Shown here piece after piece: positions 40,978 through 42,037 of a DNA stretch of 64,000 nucleotides. The notes under the pieces were generated by a model. The model worked only from the letters and a program-made list of their open reading frames with translations, was not told the origin of the DNA and ran no database searches. Position 1 is the first letter of the stretch; each line of letters opens with the position of its first letter. Source of the stretch: Escherichia coli (GTDB lineage Bacteria > Pseudomonadota > Gammaproteobacteria > Enterobacterales > Enterobacteriaceae); NCBI RefSeq assembly GCF_044647545.1, contig NZ_CP172818.1; one strand, written 5' to 3'. Made by a program: the position numbers and the translations under genes.

Positions 40978-41094
40978 GGCAACATTGGCACTTATCCTAT
41001 TACCATAAACATTTTAACTAACCCCAAAACCACATTTCATTAACTTTTTCCCTCCCCAATTTTTTTTTTTTCCTAAAAAACACCCCCCTTCCCT

Positions 41095-41150
41095 CCCCCC
41101 CCCCCCCCCCCCCCCCCCCCCCCCCACCCAAAAAAAACCCCCCCCCCCCA
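41095..41150. repeat. Extreme homopolymer tract (31-nt poly-C, then A8 and C11)
   Basis: Directly visible; no comparable tract is expected in native E. coli DNA. Confidence 0.7.
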
Positions 41151-41169
41151 ATTTTCGTGCAGCGAGTCC

Positions 41170-41520
41170 CATTTCCCCCGATAAGACCGGTATTTCTTCA
41201 GGCCACAGGAGACTTCAGGCCAAGCTGCTGCATCAGTTTTCGCACCGTTTTGCCACTGAACTTGAGACCTCTTTTCTGAAGTTCACAGTCGATCCGCCGG
41301 TACCCATAACATCCCCGGTGTTCATGGAAGATGGAGGGGATGGGCTGTTTCACATCACAATACTTTTCTTAGCCTTCTGCAGTGACAGCTGATAGTACAG
41401 CGTGCTTCTGGCCAGCCCTGCGAAGCCTTTAACAGGTCAGACTGGCAGTGTCCGCACCTCAGGTTCTGGATGACTTTCGCTTTTTCTCCAGCTCCAGGCG
41501 CTTTTTTCCCAGGAGATCCT
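41170..41520 (-). mobile_element. IS3-family transposase remnant (OrfB N-terminal region, frameshifted and truncated)
   Basis: Minus-strand translations give ...GLARSTLYYQLSLQKAKKSIVM and EHRGCYGYRRIDCELQKRGLKFSGKTVRKLMQQLGL, matching the conserved N-terminal motifs of IS3-family OrfB; no DDE catalytic domain and no inverted repeats follow. Confidence 0.5.
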
Positions 41521-42037
41521 CCTGCATGCCTTCCAGATATGCATTTCCTGCGCAAAAATACCCCCCTCCTTCTTCTCTCTTTCCGCCCTCTGTTTCCCCT
41601 CCTTTTCTCGGGTATCAACAAAACGGTCATTCTTTTCTCCCTCCCGCGCCTAAAAAAGCCCTCACCACCAGTTTGTGTCGCCTTTTTCCTGTTTTCCGCC
41701 GTGTGGTGGCCGGGAATGTTAAAGCCGGCCGGCCGCGGGGGAGAGACAGAGAAAATGCGAGAAAACAAAAAAAAACACGCAAAGTCTCTCTAGAAGAAAA
41801 TAGCCGCCCCCGTTCCTGCAATCCAGGAGCAGAAGAGCGAAAAAAAAAAAAAGAATAAAGGGGGGAGGGGGTGGTATAAAAAAGTTAAAATTGTTGTGGT
41901 GAAAAAAGGAGGCCAGACGGGCCGGTGAAAAAATTCTGTGGGGAAGACTATTTTAAATAAAGGTTTTGTAAAAAACACCACCTGATGTGATATGATATTC
42001 ACTACAAGTGTGGGGTGGAGTTTACGCGCCCTAATCA

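What the first reader, a model, noticed from the sequence alone, without database searches (positions are those of the whole stretch)
40978..42037. About 1 kb insert between yghU and hybG: poly-C tract, IS3-family transposase remnant and simple-sequence filler
As I recall, yghU and hybG are separated by under 100 bp in K-12. Here the gap holds a 31-nt poly-C run, a recognisable but frameshifted IS3-family OrfB N-terminal region on the minus strand (VSRSxYY-like and YGYRRI...KTVRKLMQQLGL motifs), and 41500-41900 of C/T- and A/G-rich simple sequence with no terminal inverted repeats or target duplication that I can find. It looks like a degraded IS fragment with non-native filler, inserted just downstream of the hyb operon (hybG is the last gene).
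Basis: partly seen in the sequence, partly recalled or inferred. Interest (0 to 1): 0.55.

Follow-up and report, generated by a model that had tools for sequence, protein, structure and literature searches.

The report
Garbled assembly copy of IS1397
The odd 1 kb between yghU and hybG is a badly reconstructed copy of an ordinary, already known insertion sequence (IS1397, sitting in a REP element in ST648-lineage E. coli), and the poly-C tract and "filler" come from how this genome was assembled, not from biology.

Summary
Window 40978-42037 is a 1060-bp gap between yghU and hybG with a 31-nt poly-C run, an IS3-family OrfB N-terminal fragment and low-complexity sequence.

It is not a decayed IS plus foreign filler. 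Sixty-nine complete ST648-lineage E. coli genomes carry an intact 1432-bp IS1397-type element at this site. It sits in a REP loop with a 4-bp ATTT duplication and 26-nt terminal inverted repeats.

The window's sequence is collinear with that element:
- 41151-41540 is about 97% identical.
- The "filler" (41541-42020) tracks orfA and the left end, decaying from 90% to 60% identity (E=8e-59).
- About 515 bp encoding the DDE core are collapsed into about 105 nt of G-free homopolymers.

The errors are non-biological: Ts:Tv is 44:73, there are 44 indel columns, and substitutions follow the locally commonest base.

Elsewhere the window is near-identical to strain ECONIH1, differing by one SNP and four small indels. 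Every segment that K-12 lacks is either missing, with the exact K-12 junction, or garbled in the same way. Each small indel sits at a K-12/ECONIH1 structural breakpoint.

Garbled ORF products occur verbatim on one NCBI contig of 4,499,902 bp.

Verdict: an artefact of a K-12-templated consensus assembly. Interest is low.

The parts
40111..40977 (+). yghU CDS (288 aa), intact
   Evidence: ORF. It corresponds to ECONIH1 yghU. The only difference from ECONIH1 is one SNP at 40359.
40978..41014 (.). Spacer plus left half of the REP/palindromic unit and the ATTT target copy. It follows the true sequence but with G-containing deletions.
   Evidence: Alignment to L001 1780-1825. G content of 40978-41050 is 5%.
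41015..41044 (-). Corrupted terminal inverted repeat of IS1397 (the end distal to orfA). TGAACTGAACCCCAAAACCTGGACA is rendered as TAACTAACCCCAAAACCACA.
   Evidence: aligns to IS nt 3-37, 83% identity, 4 gaps.
41045..41150 (.). Homopolymer collapse (T12, C31, A8, C12; 0% G). It stands in for about 515 bp of IS1397 (L001 about 1865-2376), which encode the rve/DDE catalytic core and the OrfB C-terminus.
   Evidence: Pfam places rve at OrfB aa 128-226 and rve_2 at 233-285 in the intact copy.
41151..41540 (-). Faithfully rendered IS1397 segment (IS nt 552-941; 92-100% identity per 50-nt bin). It encodes OrfB aa about 1-119 including HTH_21, with a few frameshifting indels. The slippery A AAA AAG site is altered (T7 to T6C on the + strand, about 41503-41509).
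   Evidence: NF033516 hit. HTH_21.
41541..42020 (-). Progressively corrupted IS1397 segment (IS nt 942-1432: the orfA/orfB overlap, orfA, and the inverted repeat next to hybG). Identity falls from about 90% to about 60% toward hybG.
   Evidence: bin identities; E=8e-59 against shuffles; composition exaggeration, slope 1.44.
42021..42037 (.). Corrupted right half of the REP and spacer. TTTACGCCGCATCCGGCTT is rendered as TTTACGCGCCC.
42038..42286 (-). hybG CDS (82 aa), intact and identical to the common E. coli HybG.
   Evidence: cluster 4.

Best explanation
The stretch is a corrupted rendering of an intact 1432-bp IS1397-type insertion sequence (IS3 family). In the ST648 lineage of E. coli this element sits in the loop of a REP/palindromic unit between the convergent genes yghU and hybG. 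The corruption was introduced when the genome record was built.

The record behaves like a consensus of an ECONIH1-like (ST648) strain laid onto a K-12 template. DNA that K-12 also has is reproduced essentially perfectly. DNA that K-12 lacks is either dropped at the K-12 junction or reconstructed badly.

Inferred, not shown: the bad reconstruction comes from consensus calling over reads that are not in register across an insertion. That would give local-majority 'smoothing', homopolymer collapse and length loss, followed by an abrupt return to perfect sequence where the template resumes.

The poly-C tract, the frameshifts, the 'filler' and the missing inverted repeats and target duplication therefore say nothing about the organism. 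The strain most likely carries the normal, intact IS1397.
For: Shown:

1. Sixty-nine complete genomes have an intact IS3-family element at this site. Its CDS carries a programmed frameshift. It is 1432 bp with 26-nt inverted repeats. It is 97.4% identical to a RefSeq 'IS1397 family' copy and 99.93% identical to another copy. OrfB scores 330 bits on NF033516 and has HTH_21 plus rve domains.

2. The reconstructed empty site with a single ATTT is 100% identical over 300 bp in natural relatives. IS1397's specificity for REP targets is published (PMC1525189).

3. The window is collinear with that element along its whole length.

4. The error spectrum is non-biological. Ts:Tv is 44:73 with 44 indel columns over 880 bp, against 31:5 and 1 gap between natural IS1397 copies. 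72% of substituted bases copy a neighbouring base. Substitutions go to the locally commonest base in 53 of 105 cases, and the composition slope is 1.44.

5. The flanks are near-identical to ECONIH1. There are 0 mismatches over 5284-24778, and outside the garbled parts the whole window shows only 1 SNP and 4 small indels. There has been no time for natural decay.

6. The same garbling occurs at 24779-32722 (Ts:Tv 313:664, 362 indel columns) and at 61008-62019 (poly-A runs up to 31 nt). Both are segments that K-12 lacks.

7. The 8-kb gspL-gspC segment is missing at exactly the K-12 junction, although the flanks carry ECONIH1 alleles. All four small indels lie at K-12/ECONIH1 structural breakpoints.

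8. Three ORF products that include garbled sequence occur verbatim in the NCBI-sourced protein collection on a single contig of 4,499,902 bp. That is close to K-12's 4.64 Mb, whereas the ST648-lineage genomes listed are 5.0-5.3 Mb.
Against: - I could not retrieve the record, its assembly method or its reads (searches returned nothing).
- A simple template model does not explain why the 8-kb accessory cluster survives in garbled form while the 8-kb gsp segment is dropped.
- It does not explain why the faithful island 41151-41540 starts abruptly in mid-element.
- It does not explain why G is specifically lost in 40978-41150.
- It does not explain why the longest poly-C and poly-A runs are both exactly 31 nt.
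- The read technology and the consensus software are guesses.
Confidence: 0.88

Rival explanations
1. It is a genuine biological relic. An IS1397 copy decayed in this strain through point mutations, slippage and an internal deletion of the DDE core, leaving a non-autonomous remnant plus simple-sequence DNA.
For: The sequence is physically in a deposited record. An IS3-family fragment is recognisable. No inverted repeats or target duplication are detectable in the window.
Against: - The flanking 50+ kb differ from ECONIH1, which carries the intact IS, by one SNP. The IS stretch has 117 substitutions, 44 indel columns and a loss of about 410 bp.
- Ts:Tv is 0.6, against about 6 for natural IS1397 divergence.
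- Errors mimic local composition.
- Identical garbling destroys an 8-kb gene cluster and a 1.5-kb insert elsewhere, always in DNA that K-12 lacks.
- None of 5,426 complete genomes has this version.
Confidence: 0.03
2. The window or record is synthetic. A generative sequence model, or some other in-silico imputation, reproduces well-represented (K-12-like core) sequence and degenerates into repeats and homopolymers where sequence is strain-variable.
For: - Progressive decay along the + strand with abrupt re-locking at conserved gene boundaries.
- Homopolymer and repetition loops at 24800-25900 and 61300-62019.
- Degeneration starts exactly at polymorphic junctions.
Against: - 50+ kb reproduce one specific lineage (ECONIH1) with a single SNP, which is hard to obtain from sampling a model.
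- The small scars sit at K-12/ECONIH1 breakpoints, and the exact K-12 deletion junction is flanked by ECONIH1 alleles. Both point to real reads laid on a K-12 template.
- The garbled ORFs are on an NCBI contig of 4.50 Mb.
- A neural consensus caller inside an assembly pipeline would blur the line between this rival and the best explanation.
Confidence: 0.06
3. It is a mixed case. The strain really carries an IS1397 with an internal deletion of about 0.4-0.5 kb that removes the DDE core, and assembly noise is superimposed on that.
For: The window gap is 445 bp shorter than in ECONIH1. The loss is concentrated in one block.
Against: - The same strong contraction occurs right after the left junction of the 24.8-kb garbled segment, where about 870 bp shrink to about 140 bp.
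- The third garbled segment is also about 0.5 kb short.
- The block is replaced by G-free homopolymers rather than a clean junction.
Confidence: 0.03

Closest known systems
IS1397 (IS3 family, IS150 group), the REP/palindromic-unit-specific insertion sequence of E. coli
   Same: The intact element at this site in ST648-lineage genomes is 1432 bp and 97.4% identical to a RefSeq 'IS1397 family' copy. It has orfA/orfB with a programmed frameshift, HTH_21 plus rve domains, 26-nt inverted repeats and a 4-bp duplication inside a REP loop. REP targeting matches the literature. The window's 41151-41540 is about 97% identical to it.
   Different: The window copy lacks the rve/DDE region, has no readable orfA, and has corrupted inverted repeats, target duplication and slippery site. 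These differences are attributed to the assembly, not to the element.
ISKpn1 and other REP-targeting IS elements (IS621, ISPsy8, ISPpu9/10)
   Same: They share the habit of inserting into REP sequences in intergenic regions (PMC1525189).
   Different: They are different elements or families. No sequence comparison with them was done here. The element here is IS1397-type by nucleotide identity.
Reference bias and insertion mis-reconstruction in reference-guided consensus assemblies
   Same: Template-type structure (the K-12 gsp deletion junction, no pheV island, a 4.50-Mb contig) carries another lineage's alleles. There are scars at template breakpoints. Insertions relative to the template are lost or noisy.
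   Different: I know of no documented pipeline that gives exactly this signature (G drop-out, 31-nt homopolymer caps, partial survival of an 8-kb insertion). The pipeline is not identified.

Membership tests
IS3 family / IS1397 | DDE transposase (OrfB) with an rve integrase-core domain | tested here: not met
   In the window, the region that should encode rve is replaced by about 105 nt of homopolymers. Only a 51-aa HTH_21-region fragment hits NF033516, at 42 bits against a cut-off of 160. The intact ST648 copy meets it, with 330 bits and rve E=3.5e-21.
IS3 family / IS1397 | Two overlapping ORFs (orfA, orfB) joined by a -1 programmed frameshift at an A AAA AAG-type slippery site | tested here: not met
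   In the window, orfA is unreadable (60-80% identity with indels) and the T7 run is T6C. The ST648 and ECONIH1 copies are annotated with a programmed frameshift, and both frames are open.
IS3 family / IS1397 | Terminal inverted repeats (5'-TG...CA-3', about 25 bp) | tested here: not met
   No terminal inverted repeat was found in window 40900-42120. Only corrupted traces remain. The intact copy has 26-nt arms that are 85% complementary.
IS3 family / IS1397 | Target-site duplication of 3-4 bp, with the target inside a REP/palindromic unit | tested here: inconclusive
   In the window the REP halves and the ATTT are corrupted. In relatives the duplication is ATTT inside GCCGGATAAAGCATTTACGCCGCATCCGGC, and the empty site is 100% identical in natural genomes.
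IS3 family / IS1397 | Nucleotide identity to IS1397 high enough to count as the same element (I recall that the usual ISfinder rule for isoforms is above 95%) | tested here: met
   The intact ST648 copy is 97.4% identical over 1432 bp to a copy that RefSeq labels 'IS1397 family'. The window's uncorrupted part is 92-100% identical per 50-nt bin to the ST648 copy. It was not compared with the ISfinder reference sequence itself.
Reference-templated consensus artefact | Structure of the template combined with alleles of a different lineage | tested here: met
   The exact K-12 yghE/yghF deletion junction has flanks with 0 mismatches to ECONIH1 and 16 of 600 mismatches to K-12. pheV is followed directly by yghD, as in K-12.
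Reference-templated consensus artefact | Residual differences concentrated at template-versus-sample structural breakpoints | tested here: met
   All four small indels outside the garbled regions (5290, 9091, 52903, 61006) coincide with K-12/ECONIH1 breakpoints.
Reference-templated consensus artefact | Corruption recurs at, and is limited to, DNA absent from the template, with a non-mutational error spectrum | tested here: met
   Three of three garbled stretches are segments K-12 lacks. Transversions and indels dominate, with local-composition smoothing.
Reference-templated consensus artefact | Raw reads or the assembly method confirm a template and contradict the deposited sequence | not testable with these tools
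   The record was not retrievable. Only its contig length, 4,499,902 bp, is known.

The most novel reading that the evidence does not exclude
The source strain really carries a heavily altered, DDE-less IS1397 derivative at this REP, for example a non-autonomous deletion derivative, and part of what looks like assembly noise is real sequence.
Probability: 0.04. Interest if true: 0.25.

Novelty: not a real feature. Interest (0 to 1): 0.05.

Why it matters
Its biological importance is low. The underlying event, IS1397 inserted in a REP between yghU and hybG in ST648-lineage E. coli, is ordinary and already annotated in dozens of complete genomes.

The practical value is quality control. This window comes from a deposited 4.50-Mb contig that looks like a K-12-templated consensus. 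Every lineage-specific segment in it is either lost or turned into pseudo-novel low-complexity sequence. Any scan for 'strange' sequence will keep flagging such stretches. Within this window that also applies to 24779-32722 and 61008-62019. Gene calls made on them are already in large protein collections as spurious singletons.

Tried and rejected
1. I first used NZ_CP008697.1 (strain 'ST648') as the reference. That made the left third of the window look like a K-12/ST648 chimera with 1-8% divergence. I rejected this after ECONIH1 gave 0 mismatches there. K-12 and ECONIH1 are simply identical in 22-24.8 kb.

2. I considered a generative-model or synthetic origin, because of the repetition and homopolymer collapse and the breaks at polymorphic junctions. 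I down-weighted it after finding the garbled ORFs on an NCBI contig and scars at K-12 breakpoints.

3. I looked for a trace of K-12's IS5 at the 24790 junction. There is only a faint, unconvincing resemblance.

4. The look-up of encoding contigs with three garbled proteins found nothing, so the record name was not recovered.

5. A permissive Rfam scan of 40800-42200 found no RNA family.

6. A search for inverted repeats and target duplication in the window itself found only low-complexity pairs.

7. I considered natural hypermutation or decay and rejected it on the error spectrum and the identical flanks.

8. I did not use the metagenome or GTDB exact-pattern scans. Those collections are unlikely to hold an arbitrary E. 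coli assembly, and one search had already placed the sequence in NCBI.

Full report
**1. What is in the window**

- yghU ends at 40977.
- hybG (minus strand) ends at 42038.
- The gap between them is 1060 bp.
- The gap contains T12, C31, A8 and C12 runs at 41060-41149.
- It contains a minus-strand ORF (41198-41353) with the YGYRRI and KTVRKLMQQLGL motifs. This ORF matches the NCBIfam IS3 transposase model NF033516 at positions 136-183 (E=5.6e-11).
- It contains a C/T-rich and then an A/G-rich stretch.
- Rfam finds nothing, and no terminal inverted repeats are detectable.

The K-12 gap is 122 bp, not under 100 bp.

**2. What the sequence corresponds to**

A megablast against 5,426 complete E. 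coli genomes shows that 69 genomes have an annotated IS3-family transposase between yghU and hybG. These are ST648-lineage strains such as ECONIH1, MS6198 and 'ST648'.

In NZ_CP008697.1 the element spans L001 1826-3257. Its features are:
- It is 1432 bp, starts TGAACTG and ends CAGTTCA, and has 26-nt inverted repeats.
- It has orfA and orfB joined by a programmed frameshift.
- OrfB scores 330 bits on NF033516 and carries HTH_21 (aa 52-105) and rve/rve_2 (aa 128-285).
- It is 97.4% identical to a copy that RefSeq labels 'IS1397 family' and 99.93% identical to a copy in strain KN13-4.
- Its flanks read GCCGGATAAAGCATTT|IS|ATTTACGCCGCATCCGGC, so it sits in the loop of a REP/palindromic unit.

A reconstructed empty site with one ATTT is 100% identical over 300 bp in natural relatives such as strains 1428, CLSC36 and IMT16316. 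This is a clean insertion with a 4-bp duplication, and the empty gap is 69 bp. REP-specific insertion is the published behaviour of IS1397 (PMC1525189 and the references in it).

**3. How the window relates to that element**

A global alignment shows collinearity from end to end:
- **40978-41044** follows the true spacer, REP half and IS end, but with deletions that nearly all remove G.
- **41045-41150** is about 105 nt of G-free homopolymers. It replaces about 515 bp that encode the rve/DDE core.
- **41151-41540** is 92-100% identical per 50-nt bin. It covers OrfB aa 1-119.
- **41541-42020** decays steadily from about 90% to about 60% identity through the orfA/orfB overlap, orfA and the other inverted repeat.
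- At the hybG stop codon, identity snaps back to 100%.

The so-called filler is significant homology. It aligns at 74.7% identity, 213 bits and E=8e-59, while 100 composition-preserving shuffles reach at most 26.5 bits.

**4. Why this is not biology**

*The flanks leave no time for decay.* With ECONIH1 as the reference, 5284-24778 has 0 mismatches. Outside three garbled stretches, the whole window differs by 1 SNP and 4 small indels.

*The error spectrum is wrong.*

| Comparison | Transitions : transversions | Indels |
|---|---|---|
| Window vs intact IS, 880 bp | 44: 73 | 44 indel columns |
| Two natural IS1397 copies | 31: 5 | 1 gap |

- 72% of the new bases copy a neighbouring base.
- The new base is the commonest base of the true ±6-nt context in 53 of 105 cases, against 15 of 105 for the original base.
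- Local composition is exaggerated, with slope 1.44 and r=0.82.

This is smoothing, not mutation.

*The same thing happens twice more in the window.*
- **24779-32722** covers the acyl-AMP ligase, epimerase, ACP, spt and lptG/F-like cluster. It has 313 transitions against 664 transversions and 362 indel columns, and nearly all ORFs are destroyed.
- **61008-62019** covers two hypothetical genes between yqhH and ygiQ. It is rendered as poly-A-rich junk whose longest run is again 31 nt.

**5. The common denominator is K-12**

All three garbled stretches are DNA that ECONIH1 has and K-12 lacks. Their boundaries fall at the K-12/ECONIH1 junctions.

Two larger K-12-absent segments are missing entirely:
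- The island downstream of pheV is absent. tRNA-Phe at 5068-5143 is followed directly by yghD, as in K-12.
- The 8-kb gspL-gspC segment is absent. Its junction at 6790/6791 is exactly K-12's yghE/yghF junction, yet the flanks carry ECONIH1 alleles, with 0 mismatches to ECONIH1 and 16 of 600 to K-12. A natural recombinant would have imported K-12 alleles with the junction.

All four small indels that separate the window from ECONIH1 (5290, 9091, 52903, 61006) lie exactly where K-12 and ECONIH1 differ structurally.

**6. Provenance**

Three ORF products that include garbled sequence are present verbatim in the 15-billion-protein collection. Each has NCBI as its source and sits on one contig of 4,499,902 bp. 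That is close to K-12's 4.64 Mb, whereas the ST648-lineage genomes listed are 5.0-5.3 Mb. So the window is a real deposit, not an invention of this exercise. I could not retrieve the record itself.

**7. Best explanation**

The record is a consensus of an ST648-lineage isolate built on a K-12 template. Insertions relative to the template were lost or reconstructed out of register. The yghU-hybG stretch is such a mis-reconstruction of a normal IS1397.

The exact mechanism is inferred, not shown. I propose column-wise or neural consensus over unaligned inserted bases of noisy reads. That would give drift, local-majority smoothing and homopolymer collapse, with a reset where the template resumes.

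Unexplained details:
- The 8-kb accessory cluster partly survives while the 8-kb gsp segment does not.
- The faithful island starts abruptly at 41151.
- G is specifically lost in 40978-41150.
- The homopolymer maxima are 31 nt in two places.

**8. The underlying biology, from relatives**

IS1397 lies 47 bp downstream of the yghU stop and 26 bp downstream of the hybG stop. Its transposase reads in the same direction as the hyb operon, and it splits a REP. It interrupts no gene. This is ordinary and already annotated.

**9. Verdict**

- The feature as described is an assembly artefact.
- Interest is 0.05.

Noticed in passing
window 24779-32722: An 8-kb accessory cluster is garbled in the same way as the IS. 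In ECONIH1 it holds the yghO N-terminus, fatty acyl-AMP ligase, epimerase, ACP, serine palmitoyltransferase, lptG/lptF-like, YtfJ-family and hypothetical genes, and the 3' end of the yghQ-like LPS biosynthesis gene. Identity oscillates between 55% and 100% in patches, Ts:Tv is 313:664, and there are 362 indel columns. The first about 870 bp are contracted to about 140 bp, and 24800-25900 is C/A-rich with an internal near-repeat. K-12 has IS5 in place of this cluster.
   Followed up: partly
window 61008-62019: The ECONIH1 insert between yqhH and ygiQ (about 1.5 kb, two hypothetical genes, absent from K-12) is rendered as about 1.0 kb. It starts at about 92% identity and then collapses into poly-A-rich sequence with runs of 31, 26, 21 and 19 A. 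Perfect sequence resumes exactly at the ygiQ stop codon (62019/62020).
   Followed up: partly
window 6790/6791: The 8-kb gspL-gspC segment of the T2SS-beta cluster is missing at exactly the K-12 yghE/yghF junction, yet the flanks are 0-mismatch ECONIH1 alleles. This is implausible as a natural event and points to a K-12 template.
   Followed up: yes
window 5068-5290: tRNA-Phe (pheV) is followed directly by yghD, as in K-12. ECONIH1 carries an island here that includes capsule genes. A 1-bp insertion scar lies at 5290.
   Followed up: partly
window 9091, 52903, 61006: Small deletions of 1, 5 and 3 bp relative to ECONIH1 sit exactly where K-12 has extra sequence or where homology with K-12 ends. 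K-12 has about 68 bp extra between pppA and sslE and about 222 bp extra between yghA and exbD.
   Followed up: yes
window 41095-41125 and 61611-61641: The longest poly-C run and the longest poly-A run in the window are both exactly 31 nt. This suggests a software cap, such as k=31 or a 5-bit run length, rather than chance. It is unexplained.
   Followed up: no
window 23679-24950, 29452-29997 and 32679-33791 (all minus strand): ORFs that run into garbled sequence have products of 424, 182 and 371 aa. These are present verbatim in the large public protein collection as NCBI-sourced singletons on a 4,499,902-bp contig. The artefact has therefore already seeded spurious protein sequences.
   Followed up: partly
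window 40359: A T in yghU, where ECONIH1 has C, is the only substitution relative to ECONIH1 outside the garbled stretches.
   Followed up: no
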